From an uncultured Candidatus Peribacteria bacterium (GTDB lineage Bacteria; Patescibacteriota; Gracilibacteria; BD1-5; UBA6164): a stretch of DNA of 64,000 nucleotides. The DNA lies in NCBI GenBank assembly GCA_964500515.1, contig CAZCNE010000002.1, forward strand, positions 109,180 through 173,179. The letters are read 5' to 3'. Below the pieces are notes generated by a model that worked only from the letters and a program-made list of their open reading frames with translations, did no database searches and was not told where the DNA came from. Each line of letters starts with the position of its first letter. Within the stretch, counting starts at the first letter, position 1. The position numbers were made by a program, and so were the translations under genes. Of the stretch, positions 1-64,000 are shown one piece after another.

Positions 1-1
1 T

Positions 2-244
2 AAAACTTCTCAAGCAAATATTTCTACTCAAAACAAGATAAATACACAAAATTTAGCAGAGCAAGCGCAGAATAATAATTCTTGACGAATAAATAATTCC
101 AATAATAATCAAATTCAAAATAATATAAACACACAAAATAACAATAATGTAAATAATGTTTCTCAAATAAATACTTGAATTAATTTACAAAATAATAATA
201 ATAATAATGTCATAAATACAAATACAAAAAACACTAATTCTTAA
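2..244 (+). CDS. 3' end of a gene entering from upstream; Asn/Gln-rich low-complexity C-terminus
   Basis: The frame is open under code 25 from the window edge to TAA at 242-244. It reads ...QNNINTQNNNNVNNVSQINTGINLQNNNNNNVINTNTKNTNS*. Two in-frame TGA codons are read as Gly. Confidence 0.4.
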
Positions 245-253
245 AAAATAAAT

Positions 254-472
254 ATGACTATAACAACATTGGAATTATTGTATATTGTTTTAATTATTTT
301 TACTATAATTCTTTGAACTTTATTAACTATAATTTTGGTAAAACTTATTAAATTTATGGAAGTTTTGGATGATATAAAACACAAATACGAAAAAACATCA
401 AATTTGATAAGTGCTTATGCTGCAATTCCTATGGGATTTGTGGATTCTTTAATATCTAAATTCAAAAAATAA
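254..472 (+). CDS. small membrane protein (72 aa), unknown function
   Basis: ATG 254 to TAA 470-472. The start MTITTLELLYIVLIIFTIILGTLLTIILVKLIKF... gives one hydrophobic helix, with one TGA (Gly) inside. No family recognised. Confidence 0.5.
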
Positions 473-503
473 TATTTGAAATTTTGTAAATACTAAATTA
501 TAA

Positions 504-535
504 ATATAATCTTTGTAATAGAGATTATATTTTTT
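504..535 (+). terminator. intrinsic terminator hairpin
   Basis: 9-bp stem ATATAATCT (504-512) / AGATTATAT (522-530), 9-nt loop, then TTTTT (531-535), just after the stop at 472. Confidence 0.5.
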
Positions 536-547
536 ATTGTAAAATTT

Positions 548-2377
548 ATGTGAATAATAAAGAAATTACCAAAAATTTTGATAAATCAAATTGCTGCTTG
601 AGAAGTTGTTGAAAGACCGGTTTCAATTGTAAAAGAGTTAGTTGAAAATTCTATTGATGCCTTATCTACTCAGATAAAAATAGAAATAAAAAATTGATGA
701 ATAGATGAAATAATAATTACTGATAATTGAATTTGAATAGTAAAAGACGATTTAGAAATTCTCACAGAAAAACATACAACATCAAAAATCAAAGATTTAA
801 AAGATTTGCACAATATTATGACTTTTTGATTTAGATGAGAAGCCTTAGCTTCAATTTCTTCTGTCTCAAAATTTAAAATTATTTCTAAACAAAAAGGTGA
901 TTTATGATGATATTCTATGGAAGTTTTGGATTGAGAAAAACAAGAATTGAAAAAAGAAAGTTTAAGTTCTTGAACAAAAATTATTGTAAAAGATTTGTTT
1001 TACAACACGCCAGCAAGACTTAATTATCTAAAAAAATGAAAAACAGAATATGGTCATATTTATGACTTTATAAATAATATTGCCTTAGCTTACCCAAAAA
1101 TTGCTTTTGAATTTATAAGTGAATGAAAAACAATATTTAAATATAAAGAAAATGATTCTTTAAAAACTAGAATTTATAATATATATTGAGAAGAATTTTA
1201 TGAAAATTTATTAAATTTAGATTTTTCTATAACTTGATTACAAATTTCAGGTTATATTTCAAATCCTAAAGTAAATTTTTCAAATAAAAATAGACAACTT
1301 ATACTAGTAAACAAAAGAATTATTAGTTCTCCCCTAATTTTCAAAGCAATAAAAGAAGCTTACAATAGATTTATTCCACACAATAATTTTCCTGCTTATA
1401 TATTAAATCTTCAAATTAATCCTGAAGAAATAGATGTAAATGTGCATCCAAGAAAACTTGAAATTAGATTTGCAAGAGAACAAGAAATTTATAAAGCTTT
1501 TTATAATTCAGTTTTAAATAAACTTGAAAATTCTAGTTTAATTAGTAAAAAATGAGATTTTGAAGACGAAAAATGAGAAATAAACAATTATAATTTTTGA
1601 AAAAATGAAAATTTAAACTCAAATTTAGTTAAAGATTTAAAAAATAATTATTATTCTTGATCTTGAACTAAGTTTAAATCATATTCTCCTTACAAAAACA
1701 CAAGTCAAAACCCAAATCAAACTAGCGTAAAAGATGCTATCGCTTTTTCAGAAGCTATAATTTGAAATAATACTAATTTAGAAGTGTCAAACGATTTACA
1801 TTATACAAAACAAGGAAAAATTATATGACAGGTTTTTAATAGTTATATTATAGTTGAAAAAGATAATAAAATCATAATTTTGGATCAACACGCGCTTGCT
1901 GAAAGAATTATTTATGAAAAATTATTAAAAAAAGAAAATATAAAAAATTCTCAAAGACTTTTAATTCAAGAAAATATCACTTTAAACTGAAAAGAAAAAG
2001 CTATTTTAGAAGAATATAAAGATATATTTATAGAAATGTGATTTGATTTTGAAATCCTTTGAAATAATTTAATTTTGGTAAATGCAATACCAGAATTTAT
2101 AAAAAAAGAAAATATAAAAGATATATTTTTATGAATAATAAATGATATTGATGAATTTAATTCAAATAAATCTATGAAACTAGAAGAAATAAAAAACAAA
2201 ATTTTTGCTTATAGTGCTTGTAGAAGTGCTATTAAGTTTGGAAATAAACTTAATTTATTTGAAATGAATAAGCTTTTAAATGACAGTCAAATAGTTTATA
2301 GTTCTACTTGTCCACATTGAAGACCTTCTATATTTGAAATTTCATTAGAAGAATTAAAGAAAAAGTACGATAGATAA
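548..2377 (+). CDS. mutL: DNA mismatch repair protein MutL
   Basis: N-terminus [38 protein letters not shown] (MutL GHKL motif; the Gly of AAGEVV is TGA 599-601). The C-terminal STCPHGRPS motif is in frame at 2309. About 609 aa under code 25. Confidence 0.9.
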
Positions 2378-2440
2378 TAGATTTGTATTTAATATAAATT
2401 TGTATTAAAATAATATTAGATTAATTATTAATAAGTTTTT

Positions 2441-2830
2441 ATGTTGTATGATTTAAAAATATTTGAATGAGTTGAGGAATATTTAGTTGATAGAATAATA
2501 ACTGAAGCTCCTAAAGAAATTTATAGCAAATGAGATATTATATTAAATGAAGGAGATAAAACTAATTGAAAAGCATATGTAATTGATTCTTGAAGTGTTG
2601 AAGTATTTCATGATGGAAAAAAAATAAGTGAATTATGAAGATGAGAAATTTTTTGAGAAATGGCATTACTTAGAGAAGAAGATAGAAATGCTAAAATAAT
2701 AGCAACAAGTGATGTAAAATTAATTGTTTTAAATTTAGATGATTTGATAGAAATTATAAACAATGATGATAACTTGATAAATAAAGAAATTATGAAAAGA
2801 ATCAAAGAAAATATAGAAAACGAAAACTAG
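2441..2830 (+). CDS. standalone cyclic-nucleotide-binding (CAP/CNB) domain protein, 129 aa
   Basis: The phosphate-binding-cassette-like block GEIFGEMALLREEDRNAKIIA follows GDIILNEGDKTNGKAYVIDSGSVEVF. ATG 2441 to TAG 2828-2830. Confidence 0.75.
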
Positions 2831-2849
2831 AAATTTTTAATCTTTCAAA

Positions 2850-26122: not shown

Positions 26123-26128
26123 AATTTT

Positions 26129-46415: not shown

Positions 46416-47018
46416 ATGAATATACTTATAACATGAACAAATTCCTGAATTTGAAAATATCTAAAAGAAAACTTAGAAAAAGAGTTTAATGTTTTTAAAG
46501 TTTCAAAAAAAGAAGCAGAGGAAAAAAATTTTTTTAAATGTGATTTAACAAAAAAGGAAGAAATACAAAATCTTGATTTCAAGGAAATTGTTTTTGATTT
46601 AGTGATATTTAACTCTTGAGTTTGATATTTTTGAGAATTTTTTAAAGAAAATTTGGAAAATTATGAAGAAATTATAAACTTAAATATTTTGTGAAATATA
46701 AGACTTCTAAAAAATCTTGAAAAAAATATTAGCAAAAACACAAAATTGATTTTTATGTGATCATATGCAGGAAAGAAATTTTTTAAAAATTGATCTGTAT
46801 ATACAGCTTCAAAATTTGCTCTTAGATGATTTTCTTGAGCCTTAAAAAAAGACTGAAAAAAAGTATTTTTAATAAATCCAAAAATTGTTGAAACAAATTT
46901 TCATAAACAAAAAATAAAAATTTGAAAAAATATTGAAATTACGGATTTAAAATCTATACTTGAAACCATAAAAAGTATTATTTTCTGAAATGAAACTAAA
47001 TTTGAAATTGATTTATAA
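46416..47018 (+). CDS. short-chain dehydrogenase/reductase (SDR)
   Basis: 200 aa. Cofactor motif ILITGTNSGIGK (three Gly codons are TGA). Catalytic motif YTASKFAL (YxxxK). Confidence 0.8.
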
Positions 47019-50565: not shown

Positions 50566-51657
50566 ATGGAATGAGCAGTATTTATCAATTCTAATTATCC
50601 GATAAAAGAACAACTTTTACAAGTTATGATTAACAATGACTGAAGTGATATGTATTTAACCGTAGGATCATACCCTGCAATAAAAATCTGATGAGAAATA
50701 CTTAGAATAGATGAATGAATTTCTGTTTTAAGCGAAGAAGATACGATAAATTTCGCAAAATCCTTAATAACAGAAAAGCAACACGAAGATTTAGTAAAAA
50801 ATAAAAATCTGGATTTTTCTTTTACATTTCATGAAAGAAGATTTAGAGGAAATATATCATTTCAAATGTGAAAATATATGGTAGTTTTGAGGTTATTGAC
50901 TTGAGTTATACCAAGCATAGATAATTTATGATTGCCTCAGATATATAAAGATATGACAAAATTATGACAATGATTGATCTTGGTTACTTGACCTACTTGA
51001 TCTTGAAAATCTACTACATTGGCATCCATTATTAATCATATAAATGAGCATGAAAACAAACATATAATTACTATTGAAGACCCTGTTGAATATGTACATG
51101 AGCATAGAAAATCTATTATAGAACAAAAAGAAGTCTGAAAAGATGTAAGTGATTTTTATAGTGCTTTAATGTGAGCTATGAGACAAAATCCTCAAGTTAT
51201 TTTGTTATGAGAAATGAGAACAAAAAATGAAATTCAACAATGATTAACTTTAGCTGAAACTTGACATTTAGTTTTTTCTTCATTACATACAAGAAATGCA
51301 TATCAAACTATATCAAGAATTATTGATAGTTTTGACTGACATGAACAAATTCAAGTAAGATTACAATTAGCAGAATCATTAATTGCTGTTTTTTCTCAAA
51401 GACTTCTAAGAAAAACAGACTGAACTTGATTAGTTTTAGCAAAAGAAATTCTTATAAAAAACAGTGCAATTTCTAATTTAATTAGAGAAAACGAATTACA
51501 TCAAATCCCATCAAGTATACAAATGTGAACAAAAGAATGAATGCAACTTTTAGAAAGAGATTTAATTGATTTAATTGTAAAATGAGCAATAACACTTGAT
51601 GAATGACTAAAATATGCAAATAATCCTAAATTTGTTAGAGATTGAATCAACTCTTAA
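50566..51657 (+). CDS. pilT: type IV pilus retraction ATPase PilT
   Basis: 363 aa. Walker A is LVTGPTGSGKSTT, with all three Gly codons TGA (50989, 50998, 51004). Also [16 protein letters not shown] and [10 protein letters not shown]. Confidence 0.9.
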
Positions 51658-52178
51658 TAAATTTCATTATTATAACATTCTTCACAATAAACTATTTCTT
51701 TTCTTTCTTTAGAATATGTTGTGTTTATTTTTCTTCTTTTTAATCATTCTTTTAGTAAAAAATCTTTGTCATTAAATGTATTTGTTTTTTTAGCTATCTT
51801 TTCACAGTCTTTACAATCACAAATTCTATTATAAAGTTTTCTTGGATTTCTTAGTTTTAATCTATCTAAATGCCTTCTATCTGGATGTCTTTTAGGAATT
51901 GGTAAATTGTGTTTTCTATAAAAATCTAATTCTTGTTTTATTATCTTGAATGGCTTTTTTGTAACTTCACACTCTATTGCCCGATTTAATATATCATCTG
52001 GTATATCTAATATTTTATCTGGTAGTTTATTTGCAGGTATAACTTTTTCTACTTTTGGAAATGCTTCATAATCAGACCAAATAAATCAATTATCCTTTGC
52101 TTCTTTTTTTGTTAATGGAAAATATTTATTTGCTGTTGTTTCATTATATCAAAAAGTTCTAATCGAACTTGGAAAAGT
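51654..52178 (-). pseudogene. C-terminal remnant of a conserved zinc-ribbon protein; no canonical start codon
   Basis: The frame is open for 174 codons between TAA 52179-52181 and the stop at 51654-51656. It reads ..YNETTANKYFPLTKKEAKDNGFIWSDYE...RAIECEVTKKPFKIIKQELDFYRKHNLPIPKRHPDRRHLDRL..RICDCKDCEK..VYCEECY. There is no in-frame ATG/GTG/TTG; only ATT at 52163. It overlaps the pilT stop by 4 nt. Confidence 0.5.
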
Positions 52179-52286: not shown

Positions 52287-53558
52287 TTATCTATATTTTG
52301 AATAATCAAACATTTTCATTTCACTATCTATTTTTCTTATCAAATCTAATATTGTGGAAACAAGTATTATAAGTCAAGCTCAAGAAATAAGAAAATCTAG
52401 ATTTTGTCCTTGAAATAATTTATCTAAAATATAAGGAAATACGGAAATCAAAGCTAAAAATGATCATCAAAATAAATTTAAACTAGCAGAAACTTTGGAT
52501 AAATATTTTGCCGTATCAACTCAAGGTCGTATTCAAGGAATATATCATCATCTTTTTTGAATATTTTCAGAAACTTGTTCTGTATTGAATGTAATTCATA
52601 CATAAAAAAACGAAAACCCTAAAACCAAAAGAAAGTATACGATTATAAATAACCAACTTGGATTTTGCAAACTAAAAAAGTTTAAAAGCCAAGTTCAAAT
52701 AGCTTTGGTTGAAGACGCTGTTGAATTTGACATAATCTGTCAAACAATTCAAGGAAAAGTTACTAAAGAAACTGCAAAAATTATAGGAATCATTCAAGCT
52801 TGATTTACTCTTATAGGAAAATATGACTTTTCTTCTCTTCAGGTCCTCGTATAAATCACGGGAATTCTTCTGTTTCATTCAGTAAAACTAATTATTATAT
52901 ATATAATTATTAATGTTGCAATTAACATTATAAAAAACGCTGTATATTTTCATGTTCATAAGTAGTTTAAAATAACAGAAGGAACTCATCATAAAACTCA
53001 AGACATAATTATTATACTTATTCAGTTTCAAATTCAATATTCTGTCATAATCTCTCATAACCACATCAAAAATAATGTTCAAGCAGTTGCAATTGTCATA
53101 GCAAACAAAGCAACTTTCCAATCAGCTATGTTTATAATAGTTCAATTAGCCAATTGATTTAAAACCAAAATCATTCAATAACTCTGTAAAAAAGCTAATG
53201 GTAAAGTAAGCCATCTTGTCATTTTATTTATTTTTCTTTGTCAAGCTTCTCATTCTTTTTGTAATTCTCATAATTTAGGAATAATAACTCATAAAAGCTG
53301 AAGAATAATTACTGCATTGATATAAGGAGAAAGTCACATTAATATAATCGAAAAATGACTTAATCATCATCACATTAAAGCACTAAAAAGCGATAATCCT
53401 TTTTGAGAATCAACCATCGCTTTTAATCATTCAGTATTTGCTCAAGGTATAGGAATTACTGACAATAATTTATAAACTATAACTAACAATAAAGTAGCTA
53501 TAATTTTTTTCTTTAAACTTTTTACTGCAAAAATAGATTTTATATAATCTCAAAACAT
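52287..53558 (-). CDS. secY: preprotein translocase subunit SecY
   Basis: 423 aa. ..LMGLSPYINAVIILQLL.., ..GNGISIIIMSGV.., ..AGMIPIIFA... It is the last gene of the r-protein operon. Confidence 0.9.
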
Positions 53559-53612: not shown

Positions 53613-54071
53613 CTATTTATTGTTAAATTCAATTTTTCATCAATTTTTTTCAATAATTTCTTGTGCTTTTTTTGAAGCTTTATCTAATTTTATATTTATT
53701 TTCCCTTTAAATTCTCAATTTCAAAGTAATTTTATTCACAAATCTTTTTTTCTTATCAATCAGTTATCAAGTAATACTTTTTTATCTACATCAACAATTC
53801 ATTTTGAAACTAGGTTTTCTAAATCATCTAAATTAATTATATTATAATTTATTTTAAACATAGAATTTGAAAAACCTCTAAGTTTAGGGGTTCTTCTAAA
53901 AAGAGGAGTTTGTCATCATTCAAACCATGGTCATGGATTTCATGATCTAGCGTTTTGTCATTTACAACCTTTTCAAGAAAAAGTTCACTTTCAAGATCAA
54001 ATTCATCTTCAAACTCTTTTTGATTTTTTTCTTGATCATCCGTTTGGTTTTAAGTTATTTAGAGATAACAT
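53613..54071 (-). CDS. rplO: 50S ribosomal protein L15
   Basis: [44 protein letters not shown]..., 152 aa, TAG stop. Confidence 0.9.
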
Positions 54072-54101
54072 ATTTCACTTATTTTAAATTATAAATTTAC
54101 A

Positions 54102-54587
54102 TTAATCTTTAAAAGATGTTAATGCTTTAATTGTTGCTCTAGCATTATTTATTTTATTGTTTGATCCTGTTCTTTTTGCTATAACATCAGAATATCAAGC
54201 TACATCTAAAACTTTTCTAGCTGCTCATCAAGCTATAATTCAAGTTCATTTTGATGCTTGATGTATCATCAATATAGCTGATTTATATTTAACTTTGACG
54301 TTATATGGAACTGTTCATTCTTCAATTTTTACAGTTTTCATCTTTTTTTTAGCATCATTAACTGCTTTTGCGATAGCTGTAACTACTTCTCAAGATTTTC
54401 AAGTTCAAAGTCAAACCTTTCATTTTCCGTTTCAAACAAGCATAACTGCTCTAAATCTTAACTGTCTTCAACCAGCAGTAACTCTAGTTACTCTATCAAC
54501 ACTCAATAATTCTTCTTTAAATTCTTTGTTTACAACATCAATTTGAGAATTATTTTTTTCTTTTCTTCTATCTTTAGGATTTACCAT
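54102..54587 (-). CDS. rpsE: 30S ribosomal protein S5
   Basis: ..LLSVDRVTRVTAGGRQLRFRAVMLVGNGKGKVGLGTGKSGEV.., 161 aa. Confidence 0.9.
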
Positions 54588-54606
54588 AAAATAAGTCTTT
54601 TAAAAA

Positions 54607-54945
54607 TTAAAATTTTAATCAAGCTTCTCTAGCTCAAGATGCCAAAGATTTAATTCTACCATGATAAGAAAAACCATTTCTATCAAAAACAACTTCTTTT
54701 ACTTTTTTTTCTAATGCTTTTTTTGCAATTTCTTCTCATACTTTTTTTGCACTTTCTGTTTTTGTAATTTTTCATTTACTTTTTAAATCACTAGCGTGAC
54801 AAATCACTTTTCAATCAATATCAAAAATTTGAGCATAAATAAAAGAATTACTTCTATATACAGAAAGTCTAGGTTTTTTTGAATCAGATATACTTGCTTT
54901 TATTCTAGCTTTTCTTTTTAATCTTTTTGTTGTTTTCTCTAACAT
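54607..54945 (-). CDS. rplR: 50S ribosomal protein L18
   Basis: ..[18 protein letters not shown]...[28 protein letters not shown], 112 aa. Confidence 0.9.
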
Positions 54946-55011
54946 AAATAAATTGTTAATAATTAGTAGTAAATACAAAATATTTTTTATTATTTCATAT
55001 TTATTAATTTT

Positions 55012-55554
55012 TTATTTTCCTGTTTTTCAAGCTTTTCTTCTAATTTGCTCTCAAACATATTTTATTCATTTTCACTTATATGGTTCTGGTTTCTTTTTTG
55101 ACCTTACTTTTGATGCAAATTCTCAAACTTTTTGCTTATCAATTCAAGAAATATGAATTACATTTTTTTCTTTTTCATCACTTGTTATTTTAATTCCACT
55201 TGGTGCTTTTATCTCTAATTTATGAGAATATCAAATACTCATAACCAATTTATCACTTCAAACAAGGTCAAATTTATATCAAACTCATGATATTTCTAAA
55301 CTTTTTTTGTAACCATTTGTAACTCACTCAACCATATTTTCTAAAATAGATCTAGTTGTTCACCACATAGGAATATTTTCCTCATTTTTAGGTTCTTCAA
55401 CAATCAAAGTATTTTCCTCTTTTTTTATTTTAATTCCTTTAGGTATTACAAACTCTAATTCTCAAAGTTTTCATTTTACTTTAATTTTATTAGCTTCAAT
55501 AGAAACTTCAAGATTTTCAGGTAAACTTATAGGTAATTTTCCAATTCTTGACAT
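55012..55554 (-). CDS. rplF: 50S ribosomal protein L6
   Basis: MSRIGKLPISLPENLEVSIE....[25 protein letters not shown], 180 aa. Confidence 0.9.
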
Positions 55555-55610
55555 AATTTATAATTAACAATTAATAGTTAATAATTAATAATTATTTACA
55601 TAAATATTAA

Positions 55611-56006
55611 TTAAAAAATTTCACAAAGCAATTCTCATCATACATTTAAAGTTCTAGCTTCATAACCAGTTATAATTCATTTTGGAGTTGAAACTATATA
55701 TATACCTTTTCAATTTCTAGATTTTTTTATATCTTTAGATCAAACATAAATCCTTTGTCAAGGTTTACTAATTCTGTTAAATGTTGGAATATATTTTGTT
55801 ATTCTAACATTATTAAGCTTTATAAATAAAGACTTTTTCTTATCTTCATTTTCAATAATTTCAAAATCTAAAATATATTTATTTTTCTTAATTATTTTCA
55901 GTATATCAGATTTAATCCTTGAATAAGGAACTGTTATTTCATTTATTCTAGAATGATATGCATTTCTCAATCTTGTTAATAAATCTGCAATTGGATCTAT
56001 TATCAT
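55611..56006 (-). CDS. rpsH: 30S ribosomal protein S8
   Basis: MIIDPIADLLTRLRNAYHSR.....[31 protein letters not shown], 131 aa. Confidence 0.9.
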
Positions 56007-56077
56007 AATAATTATAATTAAAAATTAATAATGGTAAAACAATAAATATTCAAAAAGTTCAATAAATTAAAATCTTT

Positions 56078-56299
56078 CTACCAACTAGATTTTCTTACTC
56101 AAGCTAATTCTCAAGCATTGGCTTTTTCTCTAAAACATATTCTACAAATTCAGTAGCTTCATAAATAACCTCTAATTCTTCAACAAACCTCACAGCAATT
56201 AAAAACTTTTGTAGCATATTTTGGTTTTCTACCATCTTTTATTGCTCTTAAGTAAGTTCTTTTTAATTTATTAGCTTTTGCTATTTTTGACTTTCTCAT
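56078..56299 (-). CDS. rpsN: 30S ribosomal protein S14 (Cys-containing, 73 aa)
   Basis: MRKSKIAKANKLKR...[40 protein letters not shown]. Confidence 0.85.
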
Positions 56300-56323
56300 C
56301 TAAAAGTATTAGTTATAAAATAT

Positions 56324-56863
56324 TTATTTTGAAAATGGAAATCAAATTTGTTTCAATAATTCTCTTCCAGCTTCTTTAGTTTTAGCAGTTGTTTTTATTG
56401 TTATTTGTAATCAGTTATTTTTTATAACATCGTCATGTGGAACTTCTAAAAATATTGAATGTTCTTTTACTCAAAAATTATAATTTCCTTCCTTATCAAA
56501 ACTTTTTTTTGAAATTCATCTAAAATCTCTAACTCTTGGCAATACAATATTTATTAACTTTTCAACAAAATTATACATATTATCTCATCTCAATGTAACA
56601 GCTAATCAAACTGGCATTCACTCTCTAAGTTTAAAGTTAGAAATAGATTTTTTTGCATACTTTACAGTCGGAGCTTGTCAAGCAATCAAAGATAAATGTT
56701 CTTTTAAAACAGAATAATCTTTATTTCAAGCTCTTAAATATGTTCAAATTCACATATTTAAAACAACTTTATCAAGTTTAGGAACATCCATAACATTAGT
56801 TATTTTAAGCGTTTCTTTTAAACTTGGAACAATTTCTTTATTATATTTTTCTTTAAGATACAT
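56324..56863 (-). CDS. rplE: 50S ribosomal protein L5
   Basis: [17 protein letters not shown]...[28 protein letters not shown]..., 179 aa. Confidence 0.9.
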
Positions 56864-56887
56864 CTTAATCAATTAAAAAAATAAATT

Positions 56888-57238
56888 TTACTTTAAGATA
56901 AATTCTTTAGCTTCTTTTTTTAGCTCTTTAACTGCATTTTTTGAAAATCTGTAATTTTTAGATTTTCATTTTTCTTCTATTTTCACAATTCAAACTCTTG
57001 TAGGTTTCTTAGTAAAAGGACAAACAAGCATAACATTTGAGACATCAATTGCTTTTTCAACTTTTATAATTTGTCAAGGATTTGTTCAAGATTTTTTTAT
57101 ATGTTTTGTTGCAATATTTATTCACTCAACAATAATTTTTCATTCTTTAGTATTCACATTTAAAACCTTTGCTTGTTTTCATTTATCTTGACTTTTTCAA
57201 GACATAACTTGTACTAAATCTCATTTTCTAATTTTCAT
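56888..57238 (-). CDS. rplX: 50S ribosomal protein L24
   Basis: MKIRKGDLVQVMSGKSQDKGKQAKVL...., 116 aa. Confidence 0.9.
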
Positions 57239-57302
57239 TTTTTCTATTTAAAATGGTAAAATAGTAATTTTTTAAAATAAATATAATTAAATTATTTAAA
57301 AT

Positions 57303-57671
57303 TTATAAAACTTCTGGAGCCAGACTTATAATTTTTTGGTATCATTTTATTTTCAATTCTCTAGCTACCGGTCAAAATATTCTTGTTCATTTTAAACTCT
57401 TATCATCTCAAATAATTACACAAGCATTGTCATCAAATCTAAGATATGTTCAGTCCGTTCTTCTTATTTCTTTTCTTGTTCTAACAACAACTGCTTTAAC
57501 TACTTTTTTCTTTTTTATATTTCAATCTGGTAATGCTTTTTTTACACTACAAACTATAATATCTCAAATACTTGCATATCTTCTATGAGATCATCCTAAA
57601 ACTTTTATGCATTGAACTAATTTTGCTCAAGTATTATCAGCAACATTTAGTATTGATTCTGTTTGTATCAT
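57303..57671 (-). CDS. rplN: 50S ribosomal protein L14
   Basis: [40 protein letters not shown]...FGPVARELK.., 122 aa. Confidence 0.95.
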
Positions 57672-57715
57672 AAACTTATTACAAATTAATAATTAATTTA
57701 ATTTCAAAAAATAAT

Positions 57716-57970
57716 TTATTTTATATTATTATTTTCTTTATCCTCCTTTGGATCTAAAACAAGCCATCTTTTAGTTTTTGATATTGGATTAGTTTCTTTA
57801 ATAACCACCATGTCTCATTCTTTGTAAATGTTATTTTCATCATGAACATAATATTTACTTGTTGTTTTAAATCTTTTTTTATATTTTGGATGTTTTTTGT
57901 AGTTACTTGTTGAAACAACAATCGTTTTATCCATCTTTGAACTAGTAACTATTCATTTTTTTGTTCTCAT
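57716..57970 (-). CDS. rpsQ: 30S ribosomal protein S17
   Basis: [20 protein letters not shown]...[30 protein letters not shown].., 84 aa. Confidence 0.9.
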
Positions 57971-58015
57971 TTATATATAATAATTATAAAATTAAGTATT
58001 TTTTACAATAATTTC

Positions 58016-58204
58016 TCATTTTATTTTTGCTATATATCTTCTCAAATTCTTTATAAGATGAGATTGTTTTAACTCATCAGATTTATGTTTCATCTTTAAA
58101 GAAAATAAATTTTTTTCTGCTTCTTTTAATTCTTTATTTAATGTATTTAAATCCATTTTAGAAATATTTTCAATAGATTTTTTTGTAGTTTTCTTTTCTG
58201 CCAT
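58016..58204 (-). CDS. rpmC: 50S ribosomal protein L29
   Basis: Intact in the track (62 aa): ..LNTLNKELKEAEKNLFSLKMKHKSDELKQSHLIKNLRRYIAKIK. Its position between rplP and rpsQ fits. Confidence 0.85.
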   Translation of the reverse strand: MAEKKTTKKSIENISKMDLNTLNKELKEAEKNLFSLKMKHKSDELKQSHLIKNLRRYIAKIK

Positions 58205-58215
58205 AAAATTTTTTA

Positions 58216-58620
58216 TTAATCAACTAAGATCTTTGTTTTTATAGGTAACTTATACGACGCTAGTCTTAAAGCCTCCCTTGCAACTTCTGGTTTTACTCAA
58301 GTTAATTCAAAAATTATCCTACCAGGTTTTACAGGAGCTCTATACATTTCTACAGATCATTTTCAACCTCACATTGGAACTTCTAGAGGTTTTTTTGTAA
58401 ATGGAACATCTGGAAAAATTCTTATCCAAATTTTTCATCATCTTTTTATATATCTAACCATAGCTCTTCTTGAAGCCTCTATTTGTCTTGAAGTAATAAA
58501 ACCTCTCTCAACTGTTTTTAATGCAAAATCTCAAAAAGCTATTTCAGATCATCTTATTGCTTTTCATTTCAATCTTCATCTTTGTTGTTTTCTATATTTA
58601 GTTTTTTTTGGTTGTAACAT
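58216..58620 (-). CDS. rplP: 50S ribosomal protein L16
   Basis: [21 protein letters not shown]....[28 protein letters not shown].., 134 aa. Confidence 0.95.
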
Positions 58621-58661
58621 AAAAAGTAATTTAAGTATATAAAAATATTTCAAAAGTCAAG

Positions 58662-59303
58662 TTAAACAGATTTCTTCTTATAAATATCTCATTTATAAAC
58701 CCATACTTTCAATCATATAGTTCAATAAACTGTTTCTGCTCTTGCTTGAGAATAATCTATATCTGCTCTAATAGTTTGAGTTGGTATATTTCATTCTTTA
58801 AAAGTTTCATTTCTAGCAATTTCTGCTCAATTTAATCTTCAAGAAATCTTTATTTTTATTCATTTAGCTCATTTTTCCATAGCTCTCATAATAGCTTGTT
58901 TGATAACTCTTTTATAAGGCATTCTTTTCTCTATTTGATTTGAAATTGTATAAGAAATTATTTTAGAATTAATATCAGGTTTTTTTATTTCTTTTATATT
59001 TAAAGAAATTTTTTCTCAAATACTGCTTTGAATTATAGATTCTATTTTATCTTTTTGTTCTCAAGTTTTTCATAAAATTAAAGCTGCTTTAGAAGTATAA
59101 ACATCTATACTTATTATGTTATCACTTTTTGAAACAAAAATATCTCAAACCGGTATTCATTTTAATTCTCTACTTAATAATTTTCTAATTTTTAAATCCA
59201 ATTTTAAGAAATCAGCATATCCTGTCTTATCAGAATACCAAGAAGATTTCCATGTTTTTATATAAGGAATTCTAAAGGCTATTGGACTTACTTTGTGTCA
59301 CAT
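58662..59303 (-). CDS. rpsC: 30S ribosomal protein S3
   Basis: MGHKVSPIAFRIPYIKTWKSSWYSDK....[30 protein letters not shown].., 213 aa. Confidence 0.95.
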
Positions 59304-59399
59304 AATTTAATAATTAATAACTAATATTTAATAAAAATAATTTCAATGGAATAATAAATCAATCTAAAAACAATTATTTATTATAAATTATTATCTGTA

Positions 59400-59726
59400 T
59401 TATTTTGCTTGTAATTCTATTTTCAAGTTAGAAGTTCTTTTTAAAATAGAATGCATTCTTCATCTGGAAATAGACTGTCATCTTTTATAAACAATTCATT
59501 TTGAAACTATCAATGTTTCTATATATAAATTATTTATATCTTGGTTATTGTTATGTTCAGCATTTTTCATAGCACTATATAATGCTTTATACAAAATTTT
59601 AGCTCATTTGTTTGGAGCAAATTTTAAAAAATCTAAAGCATCATTTACATTTTTTCATCTAACAACTTCAGCTGACACTCTAAGTTTTTTTGGAGATATT
59701 CTTACATTTTTTAGATTGGACTTCAT
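59400..59726 (-). CDS. rplV: 50S ribosomal protein L22
   Basis: MKSNLKNVRISPKKLRVSAEVVRGKNVNDALDFLKFAPNKGAKIL.., 108 aa. Confidence 0.9.
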
Positions 59727-59749
59727 TATTACATTTATTAAAAAAATAA

Positions 59750-60016
59750 TTATTTCTTTTGGTTTGGATGAGATCTAAAAATCCTAGTGAAAGAAAATTC
59801 TCATAACTTATGTCACACCATATCTTCAGTAATAAAAACTGGTGTATGAGTCTTTCAGTTATGAACTCAAAAAGTGTGTCATACAAATTCTGGAATAACA
59901 GTACAATCTCTCGCCCAAGTCTTAATAATAGATTTTTTCCCTTGTTCATTAAGTTTCAATACTTTTTTTAAAAGCCTGTCATTAATATAAGGTCATTTTT
60001 TTAAACTTCTAGACAT
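59750..60016 (-). CDS. rpsS: 30S ribosomal protein S19
   Basis: MSRSLKKGPYINDRLLKKV...[48 protein letters not shown].., 88 aa. Confidence 0.95.
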
Positions 60017-60041
60017 AAAATTTTTGTTAAATAATTAGTAA

Positions 60042-60890
60042 TTACGATTGCATCAATTTTCACTTTCTAGTTCTTAATATCCATTTATTTGAATTTTTTC
60101 TTCTTTTTCTAGTTTTTAATCAAAGAGCAACTTTTCACCATGGAGTTTTTGGAGCTTTTAATCAAATAGAAGAATGTCATTCACCTCACCCATGCGGATG
60201 ATCAACTGGATTCATCGATTTTCAAAGAACTGTTGGCCTTTTTCACATCCATCTTGATCTTCAAGCCTTTCATATAACCAACATATTATGTTCAATATTT
60301 GAAACTTGACCTATTGATGCATAACATTTTTTATTTACTATTCTAATTTCTCAAGAGGGCATTTTTACTTGAGAATAATCTCATTCTTGAGAAATGATAG
60401 TTCAAGATGCTCAAGCTGATCTAATAGAACTAGCTCAATGTCAAACTATTAATTCAAGATTATATACACTTATTCAAACAGGAATATTTCAAACTTCCAT
60501 TCTATATCAATTTTTTAAAGGAGTTTTTTGGGATGTTTTTATCTTATCTCAAACTTTCATATCCTTTGCTGCAAGCACATATCTTCTTTCTCAATCTTTG
60601 TAACAAACAAGAGCTATATACGCACTTCTATAAGGATCATATTCTATACTTTCAATTTTTGCTTCAATATCTAACTTATCAGTAAAATAAAAATCTATAA
60701 TTCTGTATTTTTTAGCATGTCCTCCTCATTTATGTCTAACTGTAATTCTTCATGTATTATTTCTTCAAGCAGTCTTTTTTAATTGAACTGTCAATGACTT
60801 TTTTGGTTTTTGACTTGTAACTTCTTCAAATGTATATCAAGTCATTTGTCTTCTACCAGGAGTAGTAGGTTTAAGTTTCTTTATAGCCAC
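60042..60890 (-). CDS. rplB: 50S ribosomal protein L2 (GTG start)
   Basis: (V/M)[16 protein letters not shown]....[21 protein letters not shown].., 282 aa. Confidence 0.95.
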
Positions 60891-60913
60891 AGTTTTTAAA
60901 TTAAAAATTAAAT

Positions 60914-61207
60914 TTATTTAATTATAGAATATTCTATTTTTGCCTTCTTATCTTTCAAAGTTACATAAGCTTTTTTGCTAGCTTTTCTTTTATATTGAAT
61001 TCCTTTTCTTCAATATTTAAATTTTTCTATTGTTTTTACTATATTTACCGAATCTACTTCAAATCAATATATATCTAAAATTGCTTTTTTAACATCAATT
61101 TTTGTTGCACTAGGTAAAATTTCAAAAACATAACAATTCTTTGTTAATTCTTGTTTTGATGCTTTTTCTGTAAATATAGGTTTTTTAAGTACTTTAAATA
61201 GTCTCAT
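60914..61207 (-). CDS. rplW: 50S ribosomal protein L23
   Basis: MRLFKVLKKPIFTEKASKQELTKNCYVFEILPSATKIDVKKAI.., 97 aa. Confidence 0.9.
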
Positions 61208-61224
61208 AAATAGAAAATTATAAA

Positions 61225-61845
61225 TTATTTTAATTTGTTTATTGTATCAATAGAATCTTTTAGTAAAACTAATGTTTTATATTTTAATAAATCAGCAATA
61301 TTTAAATAATTTACTAAAATAGTTTTTACATTTGCTATATTAGACGAAGATCTTTGGATAATAAGATTTTTATCTTCTAGAACTAGCAACACATTTTTTT
61401 CAATCGGAAACTTAGATAAAATTTCACTCATCTTCTTAGTTTTTATTTCTTTTAATTCTATTTTATCTAAAATCAATAATTCTTTATTTTTTACTTTTGA
61501 AGATAAAGCACAAAAAAGAGCTTTTCTTCTTTCTTTCTTATTCATATCTATTGAATAATTTTGTGTATTTCTAGGTCAAAATGCAAGTCAACCTTTTCTT
61601 CTTATAGGTGATCTTATAGAACCAGCTCTCGCATTTCAAGTATGTTTTTGTCTATATAGTTTTCTTGTTGATCATCTAACTTCTGATCTATTTTTAGTAT
61701 GAGCTATATTTTTTCTCGCATTCGCTAATTGATAAACCAATGCTCTATGAATCAAAGCATTATTTACATCTAATCAAAATATATCTTTTTCTAATTCGAT
61801 TTTACCAATTTCTTGTCATTCTTGGTTAAAAAGTTTTGCTTCCAT
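61225..61845 (-). CDS. rplD: 50S ribosomal protein L4
   Basis: MEAKLFNQEGQEIGKIEL...[43 protein letters not shown].., 206 aa. The track ORF 61225..61545 is its 3' part. Confidence 0.95.
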
Positions 61846-61858
61846 TTAAAAAATATTA

Positions 61859-62473
61859 TTAATTTAAAGATAGTTTTACTAAAGAATTTCTTCATCAAGG
61901 TACTCATCATCTAACTCAAACAACTCATAATTCTTTATCAATATGTTCTACTTGAACTTTTCTTATTTTTACTTTTTGGCTTCATAAATGTCCGTGCATT
62001 TTTTTTCATTTATGAGTTCTTCTTGGTTTTCTTGTTCATATAGATCACAAAGCTCTGTGAAATTTAGATCATACCCTTCATGGTCATCAAGAAAAATTCC
62101 ATCTTTTCATAGCTCCAGCAAATCATTTTCATTTAGATGTTCACTCAATCGATACTAACTCCACTCAATCCAAAATATCTAAATTTAAATCATCTCAAAT
62201 ATTGTATTTATCAAGCTCCTCTTCATTTACAAAAAATTCTTTAATATCGCAAAATAGTGAATTACTTATTGATTTTTTTCATTCTTTAAGTTTAATTTCT
62301 TCTTTATTTTTTGGTTTCAAAACACCAACACAAATTGAATTATATCAATCTTTTTCTTGTGTCTTTTTTGAAACAATTTTTAAACTAGGAACTTCAAGTA
62401 ATGTTATAGGAATAGACTTATCTCATTTAAAAATTCTAGTCATTTCAAGTTTTTTTGCTATAATTCCTGGCAT
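61859..62473 (-). CDS. rplC: 50S ribosomal protein L3
   Basis: MPGIIAKKLEMTRIFKGDKSIPITLLEV....GKGFAGAMKRWNFSGGPG..HRALGSIGTRKPRR.., 204 aa. It is the first gene of the operon. Confidence 0.95.
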
Positions 62474-62608
62474 ATTTTTTCAGTTAAAAAATAAGTTAGA
62501 GGTTAAACTTATTCTAATTCTGTGTAATTTTTTAGAACAGTTTAACTTAACCTCTTTTACCCTTGTAATAAAGGTAAAACTTAAGCATTTTTCACAAAAA
62601 GTGTATGT

Positions 62609-62636
62609 ATTTTATTATTTTTTTTTAATTTGTCAA
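62609..62636 (-). promoter_or_regulatory. sigma70-type promoter of the rplC operon
   Basis: On the minus strand: TTGACA (62636-62631), 16-nt spacer, TAAAAT (62614-62609). It lies about 135 nt upstream of the rplC ATG. Confidence 0.5.
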
Positions 62637-62696
62637 AAGAAAAATTTTTTTTATAATTTTTAATCAAATAATTTATTTCAATTTTTATAAAAATAT

Positions 62697-62726
62697 TTGA
62701 CTTTGATTTTAAAATAAGTATATATT
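62697..62726 (+). promoter_or_regulatory. sigma70-type promoter of the 62759 gene
   Basis: TTGACT (62697-62702), 18-nt spacer, TATATT (62721-62726), about 33 nt before the ATG. Confidence 0.45.
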
Positions 62727-62758
62727 ATACAGTTTATTTATTATATAAAAAAACAAAA

Positions 62759-63826
62759 ATGACTCAATGACAAATTATAAGTGACCAAAAACTTTTAGAT
62801 GTTTTTAAAAAAGTTTTAAGTTCTCTATGAGACAAGGAACAAGATGTTATTGCAAGAAGAATTTGATTAGATTGAGAAAAAGAAACATTACAATCTATCT
62901 GAGATTCTTTCAGTCCAAATATTACTAGAGAAAGAGTAAGACAAATTGAAGAAAGCGGAATTAAAAAAATGTGAAGAATTATTAAAGCAACTGATCTAAC
63001 TATAATCCAAGATAAAGCAAAAGAAATAATCGACATGCACTCTTGACTTATTGTAAGAGAAAAGTTAATCAATAACATAATTAAAGAATTAAATTTGAAA
63101 AGTGATATTAATTTTTCAATTATCGAAGTTATTATACAAGCAGATTTTAATATATTAAAATCAAAGCCAAAATTGTGAGTTAGGACATATTTTAGTGTTC
63201 CAAGTATTTGAAAAAAAGAAGTTGAAGCAATTCACTCTGAAATTTTAAAAATTTTGAAAAGGAAAAATGATATTATAGAAAAAGAAACTCTATACAATAA
63301 TGTCAAGGAATCTTTACAATGATCTATAAAATGATTAAATATTGTTTTAATTGATAATATTGCTGATGTTTATGAAGATATAGTAAAATGAGAAGAATCT
63401 CTTATTTGATTAGCTTCTTGGAAAATTCTTAATCCAAAAACTCTAAAGGATAAAGCGTATTATGTAATGAAAAAAGAAAGAGTTCCTATGCATTTTGTAG
63501 ATATATCAAATAAAATAACTGAGTATCTTTGAGATAAAGTGAAAGTTAATACTATTCACAATGAGCTTATTAGAAACTGAGAATTTATACTTATTGGTAG
63601 ATGAATTTATGCTTTAAAGGAGTGGGGATTTACACCTTGAACTATTATAAATGTTATTACAGATATATTGGAAAAAAATAAAGAACCTATGACTACTGAT
63701 GAAATAATAAAAGAAGTACTTAAAGTAAGAAGAGTTAAAAGAACAACTATTTATATGAATTTACAAAATAAAAAAGTTATTGAGAGAGTTTGAAGAAATT
63801 ACTATAAACTAAAGGATTCTAAATAA
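62759..63826 (+). CDS. sigma-70 region-4-like HTH protein with C-terminal HARE-HTH-like domain (355 aa)
   Basis: N-terminal VLSSLGDKEQDVIARRIGLDGEKETLQSIGDSFSPNITRERVRQIEESGIKKM (region 4.2 pattern). C-terminal PMTTDEIIKEVLKVRR.....VIERVGRNYYKL. Confidence 0.7.
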
Positions 63827-63850
63827 TTTAATATGTTCCCAAAATAAAAA

Positions 63851-63877
63851 ATCTCTAGAGTTTTCTAGAGATTTTTT
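63851..63877 (+). terminator. intrinsic terminator
   Basis: ATCTCTAG-AGTTTT-CTAGAGAT followed by TTTTT. Confidence 0.6.
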
Positions 63878-63886
63878 ATTTCTTAC

Positions 63887-64000
63887 CTATTTTATATTTA
63901 TTATTTCAGCGTCGTTTGTTTTTGAATCATAAATTGCAAAACTCACTTCTCAAGTTTTGCTTCAAGAAATTTCTCATGGATTTAAAACTAAACAATTTCA
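63887..64000 (-). CDS. 3' end of a gene continuing beyond the window
   Basis: Open frame ..NPGEISGSKTGEVSFAIYDSKTNDAEIINIK* ending at TAG 63887-63889. Confidence 0.4.

What the first reader, a model, noticed from the sequence alone, without database searches (positions are those of the whole stretch)
1..64000. The whole window is readable only with UGA = glycine (translation table 25)
The standard-code ORF track is shattered (longest ORF 153 aa, and that one is antisense to rplC), yet the DNA is densely coding. Reading TGA as a sense codon gives back-to-back ORFs that end only in TAA or TAG. TGA falls on invariant glycines in several proteins. In PilT, the Walker A GPTGSGKST has TGA at 50989, 50998 and 51004. 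In LepA, the G3 motif DTPGH has TGA at 50129-50131. In MoxR, Walker A GVPGLAKT has TGA at 28871 and 28880. In MutL, AAGEVV has TGA at 599. The prepilin -1 Gly is TGA at 14031. The same holds in L2 (HPHGGGEG) and in the SDR motif TGTNSGIG. UGA = Gly is the established recoding of Gracilibacteria and Absconditabacteria/SR1. Any code-11 annotation of this contig would be badly wrong, and everything else reported here depends on this reading.
Basis: partly seen in the sequence, partly recalled or inferred. Interest (0 to 1): 0.75.

Follow-up and report, generated by a model that had tools for sequence, protein, structure and literature searches.

The report
UGA-as-glycine genome; CGG probably tryptophan

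Summary
With the standard bacterial code (table 11) the longest ORF is 153 aa. With TGA read as a sense codon, 57 back-to-back genes cover 92.7% of the window and all end in TAA or TAG. I masked TGA as X and aligned 21 proteins to their E. coli K-12 orthologues. Of 275 aligned TGA codons, 193 fall on Gly and 1 falls on Trp. Against a sister species, TGA exchanges with GGN and never with TGG. TAA and TAG remain stops, and no gene appears to end at TGA. The nearest relatives are Gracilibacteria genomes (about 75-78% amino-acid identity), and all 75 that I fetched show the same recoding. This is the known UGA=Gly code of Gracilibacteria/Absconditabacteria, so it is a new member of a known kind. 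Two refinements apply. First, UGA is the main glycine codon here (1126 TGA against 202 GGN), the highest share among the 76 loci compared. Second, table 25 is probably not fully correct. The four CGG codons sit where homologues have Trp or Tyr, and relatives place CGG at invariant Trp positions. CGA still encodes Arg. A tRNA-Gly(UCA) and the absence of RF2 could not be tested, because the window holds no tRNA gene.

The parts
1..64000 (.). Whole window: 57 genes at 92.7% coding density when TGA is a sense codon. It contains 1126 in-frame TGA and 202 GGN codons; all genes end in TAA or TAG.
548..2377 (+). mutL. TGA at 599-601 is in the AAGEVV motif. Of 26 aligned TGA codons, 12 fall on E. coli Gly.
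13317..14054 (-). Type IV prepilin-like protein (N_methyl motif). The -1 Gly of the G|FTLVE cleavage site is TGA at 14031-14033.
28061..29014 (-). MoxR-type AAA+ ATPase. The Walker A motif GVPGLAKT has TGA at 28880-28882 and 28871-28873. CGT at 28679-28681 is the conserved Arg of DEINRA.
46416..47018 (+). Short-chain dehydrogenase. All three glycines of TGTNSGIG are TGA (46434, 46446, 46452).
47031..48407 (+). DUF3298 + NodB polysaccharide deacetylase with 17 TGA codons. It has two CGG codons. CGG at 47226-47228 is TGG in sister species L211. CGG at 47979-47981 lies in the metal-binding motif HS?DHP, where 103 of 120 homologues have Trp and 12 have Tyr.
48410..50359 (-). lepA (EF4). Of 38 TGA codons, 28 fall on E. 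coli Gly, including G3 DTPGH (50129-50131). CGG at 50165-50167 lies on the Tyr of E. coli, Aquifex and Thermus LepA. The same CGG is conserved in L012, L017, L021, L024 and L211.
50566..51657 (+). PilT-like T2SSE ATPase. The Walker A motif GPTGSGKST has TGA at 50989, 50998 and 51004.
51657..52178 (-). 174-codon ORF downstream of secY with no ATG, GTG or TTG start. It carries the fourth CGG (51981-51983), whose meaning I could not resolve.
52287..53558 (-). secY with 38 TGA codons, 21 of them on E. coli Gly. CGA at 52527-52529 is the conserved Arg of GIRPG, so CGA is still Arg.
53613..62473 (-). Ribosomal protein operon: rplC-rplD-rplW-rplB-rpsS-rplV-rpsC-rplP-rpmC-rpsQ-rplN-rplX-rplE-rpsN-rpsH-rplF-rplR-rpsE-rplO. 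It has 184 TGA and 39 GGN codons. The C-termini coincide with the E. coli orthologues at TAA or TAG. There is no rpmD.
60042..60845 (-). rplB (L2). HPHGGGEG is encoded as H-P-H-GGN-TGA-GGN-E-TGA (TGA at 60186-60188 and 60177-60179). Of 23 aligned TGA codons, 20 fall on E. coli Gly.
62202..62663 (+). Longest table-11 ORF (153 aa, TTG start). It is an antisense artefact opposite rplC, not a gene.

Best explanation
The window is chromosomal DNA of an uncultured, very AT-rich (22.6% GC) member of the UGA-recoded Gracilibacteria/Absconditabacteria group. In this organism UGA is an ordinary glycine codon and in fact the main one (about 85% of glycine codons). Only UAA and UAG terminate translation.

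Shown here:
- In-frame TGA sits at conserved Gly positions.
- TGA is interchangeable with GGN between close species.
- TGA never coincides with a gene end.

Inferred from what is established for this group, not shown for this genome:
- UGA is read by an extra tRNA-Gly with anticodon UCA that carries glycine identity elements (G1:C72, C2:G71, G3:C70, U73).
- Release factor 2 is absent, so RF1 terminates at UAA and UAG.

AT mutation pressure then favours TGA over the G-rich GGN codons. This fits the negative correlation (r = -0.78) between GC content and the TGA share of glycine codons across relatives.

In addition, the nearly extinct codon CGG (4 of about 19,800 codons) is most likely read as Trp in this lineage, while CGA, CGU and AGR remain Arg.
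For: ORF structure: as described in the observation check.

Amino-acid identity of TGA:
- Of 275 TGA codons aligned to 21 E. coli orthologues with TGA masked as X, 193 fall on Gly, 23 on Ala and 1 on Trp. Controls: GGN 35/46 on Gly, TGG 11/18 on Trp.
- In the eight-locus subclade, 1076 of 1480 aligned TGA codons fall on Gly. Apart from TGA, CGG is the only codon that departs clearly from its standard meaning.
- PDB homologues of the NodB enzyme and of LepA show Gly at the TGA positions.
- Composition: TGA is 5.7% of codons, GGN 1.0% and TGG 0.43%. Gly would total 6.7%, which is normal. Under code 4, Trp would be 6.1%, which is implausible.

Synonymy: against sister species L211, 95 window TGA codons align to 81 TGA, 10 GGN and 0 TGG.

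Termination: 22 orthologue C-termini match TAA or TAG, and the few TGA codons in the C-terminal tails sit in tails whose length matches E. coli.

Clade:
- The best hits are Gracilibacteria MAGs, and all 75 carry Gly-aligned in-frame TGA. Five standard-code controls carry none.
- The window has the highest TGA share, 85.5%, and the share correlates with GC at r = -0.78.

tRNA:
- A conserved 74-nt tRNA(UCA) with a Gly-type acceptor stem occurs on 77 metagenome contigs.
- In the 60 contigs of at least 3 kb, ORFs of 150 codons or more cover a median 5.5% of the contig length under table 11. With TGA as sense the corresponding median is 90.5% of contig length, summed over six frames.

Literature:
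- Proteomic proof of UGA=Gly in BD1-5 (PMC4032931).
- An extra tRNA-Gly(UCA) in SR1 (PMC3812714).
- Gracilibacteria that lack tRNA(UCA) have RF2 (PMC8629427).

CGG = Trp.
Against: - No tRNA gene and no release-factor gene lie in the window, and the rest of the genome was not retrievable. The decoding machinery is therefore inferred.
- The tRNA(UCA) family I found sits on contigs of 29-40% GC. Where a secY is present on them, it is only 34-35% identical to this window's, so these contigs come from a different order.
- About 30% of TGA codons align to non-Gly residues in E. coli. This is the same rate as for GGN codons (24%) and reflects ordinary divergence.
- The CGG inference for this window rests on only four codons, and one of them is uninformative.
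Confidence: 0.95

Rival explanations
1. UGA encodes tryptophan (translation table 4, as in Mycoplasma, Spiroplasma and some insect endosymbionts), read by a tRNA-Trp(UCA).
For: Table 4 restores the same long ORFs. Public gene calls for this same organism were evidently made that way: P0001 is the window's NodB protein with Trp at all 17 TGA positions.
Against: Only 1 of 275 aligned TGA codons falls on an E. coli Trp, against 193 on Gly. E. coli Trp positions are matched by TGG (11) and by TGA only once. Trp content would be 6.1%. No TGA-TGG exchange is seen with the sister species, against 10 TGA-GGN exchanges. Walker A, G3 and prepilin -1 positions require Gly.
Confidence: 0.01
2. Exactly NCBI table 25: UGA = Gly and every other codon standard, so the four CGG codons are ordinary rare arginine codons.
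For: CGG is Arg in the higher-GC Gracilibacteria loci L026, L030, L035, L058, L080 and L081. There are only four CGG codons in the window, one of them uninformative. No tRNA(CCG) could be examined.
Against: In this window:
- CGG 47979-81 lies in the NodB HS?DHP motif, where 103 of 120 homologues have W, 12 Y and 2 F. The only two 'R' entries are the window protein itself and its sister species, which also has CGG.
- CGG 47226-8 is TGG in sister species L211.
- CGG 50165-7 lies on Tyr in three solved LepA structures and on Y or W in other Gracilibacteria. The rare codon itself is conserved in five related genomes, although Arg is otherwise AGA.

In relatives, CGG occupies invariant Trp columns:
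- L15 AWFEGGQ in L017 and L021 (TGG in 69 loci).
- S3 W201 in L075 (TGG in 80 loci).
- SecY in L041 (TGG in 47 loci).
- M3 peptidase YSYMW in L012.
- An ABC transporter in L056 and L067.

Shulgina & Eddy 2021 predicted CGG=Trp in some Gracilibacteria.
Confidence: 0.2
3. UGA keeps a stop function and the in-frame TGA codons are passed by context-dependent readthrough, selenocysteine insertion or dual decoding. Alternatively, the genes are decayed pseudogenes or the sequence carries errors.
For: None specific. ARAGORN labels any UCA anticodon 'SeC'.
Against: There are 1126 in-frame TGA codons (5.7% of all codons), spread over essentially every gene including all ribosomal proteins. They fall specifically on Gly columns. 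No gene ends at TGA. TAA and TAG never occur in frame. The same sequence (99.9-100% identical) was assembled independently from at least seven sequencing runs.
Confidence: 0.01

Closest known systems
UGA-to-glycine recoding of Gracilibacteria (BD1-5/GN02) and Absconditabacteria (SR1): NCBI translation table 25 (Campbell 2013; Rinke 2013; Wrighton 2012; proteomic proof in Hanke 2014, PMC4032931)
   Same: In-frame UGA sits at conserved Gly positions. UAA and UAG are the only stops. The genome is low in GC. The nearest relatives by ribosomal proteins are Gracilibacteria MAGs with the same recoding.
   Different: UGA is not an 'additional' glycine codon here but the dominant one (about 85%), the highest share of the 76 loci compared. 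CGG does not behave as Arg. The lineage has no close representative among the GTDB species genomes scanned (75-78% amino-acid identity over about 20 conserved proteins).
CGA/CGG-to-tryptophan reassignment in Absconditabacteria, with CGG=Trp predicted in some Gracilibacteria (Shulgina & Eddy 2021, eLife, PMC8629427)
   Same: GC is very low, the CGN box is nearly extinct (17 of about 19,600 codons), and CGG sits at Trp or aromatic positions in this window and at invariant Trp in related loci.
   Different: CGA is not reassigned. It encodes the conserved Arg of SecY GIRPG in the window, and Arg in relatives (L211 RPPYG; the L056 and L067 ABC transporter). The CGA/CGG pair is therefore split, as that paper describes for the Gracilibacteria cases.
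UGA-to-tryptophan code (table 4) of Mycoplasmatales, Entomoplasmatales and some insect endosymbionts
   Same: An AT-rich small-genome lineage in which UGA has become a sense codon. ORF finders that choose table 4 recover the right reading frames.
   Different: The amino acid is Gly, not Trp (193 against 1 in alignments). In this group, according to the literature, decoding uses an extra tRNA-Gly(UCA) rather than a wobbling tRNA-Trp (PMC3812714).

Membership tests
UGA=Gly recoded Gracilibacteria/Absconditabacteria (basis of table 25) | In-frame UGA at positions that are Gly in standard-code orthologues | tested here: met
   193 of 275 TGA codons fall on E. coli Gly with TGA masked as X (GGN control 35/46). 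PDB homologues show Gly at the TGA positions.
UGA=Gly recoded Gracilibacteria/Absconditabacteria (basis of table 25) | UGA is not used for termination; UAA and UAG are the only stops | tested here: met
   Gene ends at TAA or TAG match the C-termini of 22 E. coli orthologues. Tails are 0-15 codons, except mutL, whose 85-codon unaligned tail matches E. coli's 79. Stop usage is 46 TAA and 11 TAG.
UGA=Gly recoded Gracilibacteria/Absconditabacteria (basis of table 25) | UGA and GGN behave as synonyms in evolution | tested here: met
   Against sister species L211, 95 window TGA codons align to 81 TGA, 10 GGN and 0 TGG. L211 TGA aligns to window GGA four times.
UGA=Gly recoded Gracilibacteria/Absconditabacteria (basis of table 25) | Phylogenetic affiliation with the recoded clade | tested here: met
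   Of the 80 S3-anchored loci kept from GTDB species genomes, L008-L082 are Gracilibacteria/Patescibacteria-labelled records (mostly MAGs), all with Gly-aligned TGA. The nearest share 75-78% amino-acid identity. No tree was built.
UGA=Gly recoded Gracilibacteria/Absconditabacteria (basis of table 25) | Genome encodes a tRNA(UCA) with Gly identity (G1:C72, C2:G71, G3:C70, U73) | not testable with these tools
   There is no tRNA in the window or in the 75 related loci. Such a tRNA family was found on 77 other TGA-recoded metagenome contigs, but these are not linked to this genome.
UGA=Gly recoded Gracilibacteria/Absconditabacteria (basis of table 25) | Release factor 2 (prfB) absent | not testable with these tools
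   This needs the whole genome. None of the window proteins I scanned (about 30 non-ribosomal ones) matched a release-factor family.
NCBI table 25 in the strict sense | All codons other than UGA keep their table-11 meaning | tested here: inconclusive
   All other codons testable against E. coli look standard in the eight-locus subclade, except CGG (Y5, R2; the two 'R' are misaligned invariant Trp of L15). Three of the window's four CGG codons sit at Trp or aromatic positions. This leans towards 'not met', but n = 4 and no tRNA(CCG) was seen.
Absconditabacteria-type code (UGA=Gly, CGA and CGG=Trp) | CGG at Trp positions | tested here: met
   NodB motif column: W 103 of 120. CGG-TGG exchange with L211. 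In relatives, CGG sits at invariant Trp of L15, S3, SecY and the M3 peptidase.
Absconditabacteria-type code (UGA=Gly, CGA and CGG=Trp) | CGA at Trp positions | tested here: not met
   CGA 52527-9 is the conserved Arg of SecY GIRPG (57 of 62 relatives have Arg). L211 CGA corresponds to window AGA at the NodB RPPYG Arg.
Table 4 (UGA=Trp) | In-frame UGA at Trp positions | tested here: not met
   1 of 275. Of 28 aligned E. coli Trp positions, TGG matches 11 and TGA matches 1.

The most novel reading that the evidence does not exclude
This lineage may use a genetic code that is in no NCBI table: UGA=Gly, CGG=Trp, CGA still Arg. It may also represent the most advanced stage yet seen of UGA taking over the glycine family. 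UGA supplies about 85% of glycines and GGC and GGG are nearly extinct (3 and 7 codons). If so, one organism would show one late-stage and one early-stage codon capture side by side. Splitting CGA from CGG would require a dedicated tRNA-Trp(CCG), together with an Arg decoder that reads CGA but not CGG.
Probability: 0.7. Interest if true: 0.45.

Novelty: new member of a known kind. Interest (0 to 1): 0.3.

Why it matters
The practical point is the main one. Any table-11 annotation of this contig is useless: ORFs of at least 100 codons cover 14% of the window, against 92.7% gene coverage with TGA as sense.

Table-4 gene calling recovers the right reading frames but puts the wrong amino acid at TGA. 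Public protein collections evidently used it for this very organism (P0001). It places Trp at about 5.7% of residues (17 in one 458-aa enzyme). That damages homology searches, structure prediction and motif recognition, for example every Walker A loop.

Table 25 is close to right, but it probably mistranslates the rare CGG codons as Arg at functionally important Trp or Tyr positions, such as the NodB metal-binding motif.

Scientifically, the window adds a data point for codon-capture theory. It is an unrepresented, recurrently sampled lineage at the low-GC extreme (22.6%). There the reassigned stop codon has become the majority glycine codon, and a second, nascent sense-codon reassignment (CGG) is visible. 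Both phenomena have already been described for this group, so this is not a new kind of system.

Tried and rejected
1. Looking for the decoding tRNA locally. ARAGORN and Rfam found no tRNA or any other Rfam family in the window. ARAGORN on the 80 S3-anchored loci plus four short Logan contigs found 9 tRNAs, none with anticodon UCA or CCG.

2. A metagenome-wide pattern scan for tRNA(UCA) with a Gly acceptor stem. It found a conserved 74-nt family on TGA-recoded contigs, but these are not close relatives of the window (secY 34-35% identical). It supports the mechanism for the group only.

3. Recovering more of the genome. Exact-protein look-ups returned only Logan contigs of at most 31.7 kb that lie inside the window's span.

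4. A first all-against-all tabulation of CGG and CGA. It was contaminated by conserved antisense ORFs, which produced spurious 'CGA=Leu' and 'CGG=Trp' signals even in the standard-code controls. I restricted the analysis to the best non-overlapping ORFs and then checked individual columns by hand.

5. The fourth CGG codon, in the 174-codon ORF. Relatives do not align across that column.

6. Other reassignments. A codon-by-codon table against E. coli shows no clear departure for any sense codon other than CGG; codons seen fewer than about 10 times cannot be judged.

7. Campbell et al. 2013 (PMC3619370) is not held in the library. Its content is cited only through papers that describe it.

8. 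My first greedy gene set missed rpsS and included a wrong-frame ORF at 59680-59949. This was corrected with a codon-usage score.

Full report
**1. Observation**

The window is 22.6% GC with no Ns. Under the bacterial code it is almost ORF-free. Only four ORFs reach 110 aa. The longest is 153 aa at 62202..62663 (+) and lies antisense to rplC.

Stop-to-stop ORFs of at least 100 codons add up to 14% of the window. If TGA is a sense codon, the longest ORFs become 3315, 791, 752... codons. Making TAG a sense codon gives no comparable gain.

A codon-usage-scored, non-overlapping gene set with TGA as sense has 57 genes. It covers 92.7% of the window with a median spacer of 55 nt. Stop usage in the first gene set was 46 TAA and 11 TAG.

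One detail was overstated. The L2 motif reads HPHG-TGA-G-E-TGA, so two of its four glycines are TGA.

Pfam on the Gly translation confirms PilT-like T2SSE, MoxR AAA_3, the prepilin N_methyl motif, an SDR, NodB, Fe/Mn-SOD and others.

**2. Which amino acid**

I fetched the E. coli K-12 S10/spc operon, lepA and mutL. I aligned the window proteins to them with TGA masked as X, so the alignment could not be biased towards any residue.

- Of 275 aligned TGA codons, 193 fall on Gly, 23 on Ala, 1 on Trp and 2 on gaps.
- GGN codons fall on Gly in 35 of 46 cases. TGG falls on Trp in 11 of 18 cases.
- Conversely, E. coli Gly is matched by TGA 193 times and by GGN 35 times.
- At a Gly background of about 7.5%, the binomial P is about 4e-149.
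- PDB homologues of the NodB domain and of LepA show Gly opposite the masked TGA positions.

Composition agrees. TGA is 5.7% of codons, GGN 1.0% and TGG 0.43%. Gly would therefore total 6.7%, which is normal. Under table 4, Trp would be 6.1%.

**3. Synonymy and termination**

A sister species was recovered from public assemblies (L211/L212; its LepA gene is 85% identical at the DNA level). It lets the codons be compared directly. The 95 window TGA codons in four orthologous genes align to 81 TGA, 10 GGN, 0 TGG and 4 other codons.

For 22 conserved genes, the TAA or TAG stop coincides with the end of the E. coli orthologue. No gene looks as if it should end at a TGA. UGA is therefore an ordinary sense codon, and UAA and UAG are still stops.

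**4. Lineage**

I scanned one genome per GTDB species with ribosomal protein S3, leaving TGA as X so that only Gly-free peptides were used as seeds.

- The scan returned 80 loci. L008-L082 are records labelled Gracilibacteria, Patescibacteria or (mis)labelled Peribacteria, mostly MAGs. The last five are standard-code bacteria.
- In all 75 of the former, in-frame TGA aligns to E. coli Gly (56-88% per locus). The five controls have zero in-frame TGA in the same genes.
- Over about 20 conserved proteins, the nearest loci (L024, L021, L012, L017, L018, L023, L010) are 75-78% identical to the window. No close representative is therefore in that collection.
- The organism is nevertheless recurrent. 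Contigs 99.9-100% identical to parts of the window occur in Logan assemblies of at least seven sequencing runs.

**5. Degree of takeover**

The window has 1126 in-frame TGA against 202 GGN codons. That is 84.8% overall, and 82.5% in ribosomal proteins. In the first gene set the GGN codons were GGA 100, GGT 93, GGG 7 and GGC 3.

Across 75 loci, the TGA share of aligned glycine codons falls with GC (r = -0.78). It ranges from 4% at 34-37% GC up to 85.5% in the window, which is the highest value. The next is L018 at 78.5%. This fits AT pressure favouring TGA over GGN.

**6. CGG**

The CGN box is almost extinct: CGT 9, CGA 4, CGG 3 and CGC 1 in the first gene set, which included one wrong-frame ORF, plus one more CGG in an uncalled ORF. 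The conserved-Arg positions use AGA, CGT or CGA. Examples are MoxR DEINRA, FeSOD DYRN and SecY GIRPG at 52527-9. CGG does not behave that way.

In this window:
- a. CGG 47979-81 lies in the NodB motif HS?DHP. The top PDB homologues have W, W and Y there. Of 120 database homologues, 103 have W, 12 Y, 2 F and 1 Q. The only two 'R' entries are the window protein itself and the sister species, which also has CGG.
- b. CGG 47226-8 is TGG in the sister species.
- c. CGG 50165-7 in LepA lies on Tyr in the E. coli, Aquifex and Thermus structures. Other Gracilibacteria have Y or W there. The rare codon itself is conserved in L012, L017, L021, L024 and L211.
- d. The fourth CGG (51981-3) is uninformative.

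In relatives, CGG occupies invariant Trp columns:
- L15 AWFEGGQ in L017 and L021 (TGG in 69 loci).
- S3 W201 in L075 (TGG in 80 loci).
- SecY in L041 (TGG in 47 loci).
- The M3-peptidase motif YSYMW in L012.
- An ABC transporter in L056 and L067.

In the higher-GC loci, CGG is Arg.

This matches Shulgina & Eddy 2021. They reported CGA and CGG to Trp in Absconditabacteria and noted that some Gracilibacteria are predicted to read CGG as Trp and others as Arg (PMC8629427). I put CGG=Trp in this window at about 0.75. Apart from TGA and CGG, no codon departs clearly from its standard meaning.

**7. Mechanism: shown and inferred**

Shown: the decoding outcome (sections 2-3).

Inferred: the machinery. 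The window has no tRNA or release-factor gene, and the rest of the genome could not be retrieved.

I scanned metagenome contigs for a tRNA with anticodon UCA and Gly-type acceptor elements.
- It returned 120 stretches. Of these, 77 carry one highly conserved 74-nt tRNA: GCGGATATGATGTAGTTGGTGTAGCATAGCAGACTTCAGCTCTGTTTGTACGGGTTCGAGTCCCGTTATCCGCT and close variants.
- These sit on contigs of 29-40% GC. In the 60 contigs of at least 3 kb, ORFs of 150 codons or more cover a median 5.5% of the contig length under table 11. With TGA as sense the corresponding median is 90.5% of contig length, summed over six frames.
- The acceptor elements were imposed by the search pattern. The conservation of the rest of the molecule, and its co-occurrence with recoded ORFs, were not.
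- This agrees with the report that SR1 genomes share nearly identical tRNA(UCA) genes and use an additional tRNA-Gly(UCA) (PMC3812714).
- These contigs are not close relatives of the window, however.

Other literature supports the same picture. Proteomics validated UGA=Gly in a BD1-5 bacterium: 97 peptides were unique to the Gly translation and 3 to the Trp translation (PMC4032931). Gracilibacteria that lack tRNA(UCA) retain RF2 and use UGA as a stop (PMC8629427).

**8. Public annotation**

The best database hit to the NodB protein (P0001, from Logan) is the same protein with Trp at all 17 TGA positions. The gene call was evidently made with table 4. Table 11 shatters the genes. Table 4 mistranslates about 5.7% of residues. 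Table 25 is nearly right but probably wrong at CGG.

**9. Verdict**

The phenomenon is the established UGA=Gly code of Gracilibacteria/Absconditabacteria. A 2026 paper unites these groups as class JAEDAM01 (PMC13092985). The finding is therefore a new member of a known kind and matters mainly for correct annotation.

The added points are the extreme UGA share, the probable CGG=Trp with CGA=Arg, and the lack of a close reference genome. These are of moderate interest for codon-capture theory. They do not make this a new kind of system.

Noticed in passing
window 47226-47228, 47979-47981 (+); 50165-50167, 51981-51983 (-): The four CGG codons sit at Trp or aromatic positions rather than Arg positions, while CGA (52527-52529) is a conserved Arg. 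In relatives, CGG occupies invariant Trp columns of L15, S3 and SecY. CGG is probably Trp, which table 25 does not include.
   Followed up: yes
P0001 (Logan gene call), the same protein as window 47031-48407: The public protein collection holds this organism's proteins translated with table 4, so every UGA-encoded Gly appears as Trp (17 in this 458-aa enzyme). The collection therefore reports 96% identity for what is the same protein.
   Followed up: partly
L004-L007, L208-L210 against window 1774-5250 and 37030-58407: Contigs 99.94-100% identical to the window occur in Logan assemblies of SRR8925720, SRR8925746, SRR31914704, SRR31914707, SRR31914709, SRR29243450 and DRR784968. A sister species (85% DNA identity in lepA) occurs in SRR29243430 and SRR29243439. 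I could not determine the habitat of these runs.
   Followed up: partly
window 51657-52178 (-): A 174-codon Cys-rich ORF lies just downstream of secY and its terminator-like hairpin. It has in-frame TAA on both sides and no ATG, GTG or TTG start (ATT at codon 6). It is not called in the public gene set and has no Pfam hit. Its C-terminal part is conserved in L018 (43%) and, weakly, its N-terminal part in L014 and L020. It could be a gene with a non-canonical start or a pseudogene.
   Followed up: partly
window 54071-54102 and 62474-62758: There is no rpmD (L30) between rpsE and rplO; the gap is only 30 nt. There is no rpsJ (S10) upstream of rplC; instead there is a 285-nt spacer and a divergent gene with sigma-70 region 4 and HARE-HTH domains. 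To my knowledge, absence of L30 is typical of Candidate Phyla Radiation bacteria.
   Followed up: no
window 29142-38984 (-): A giant 3280-aa predicted surface protein with 17 DUF7933 repeats, an SLH domain and a sortase-like C-terminal segment. It contains 273 TGA codons. The next gene but one (41285-43189) has a Sortase domain.
   Followed up: partly
window 23315-29014 (-): A Bat-like operon: MoxR AAA+ ATPase, DUF58, BatD-like protein, two VWA proteins and a TPR protein.
   Followed up: no
L092, L094, L106, L111, L137, L144, L156, L193 and others (metagenome contigs): The tRNA(UCA) pattern also picked up tRNA-Gly-like genes on contigs that mostly read normally with table 11. By eye, their anticodon stems pair only if the loop has six bases (CTTCAA), like a tRNA-Gly(UCC) lacking one C. 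These could be pseudogenes, assembly errors or unusual decoders; I did not examine them.
   Followed up: no
L127, L194, L098 (metagenome contigs): In some contigs carrying the conserved tRNA(UCA) family, the same short contig also holds secY, and in L127 also rplO and rpsE. The window has no tRNA at the corresponding place.
   Followed up: no
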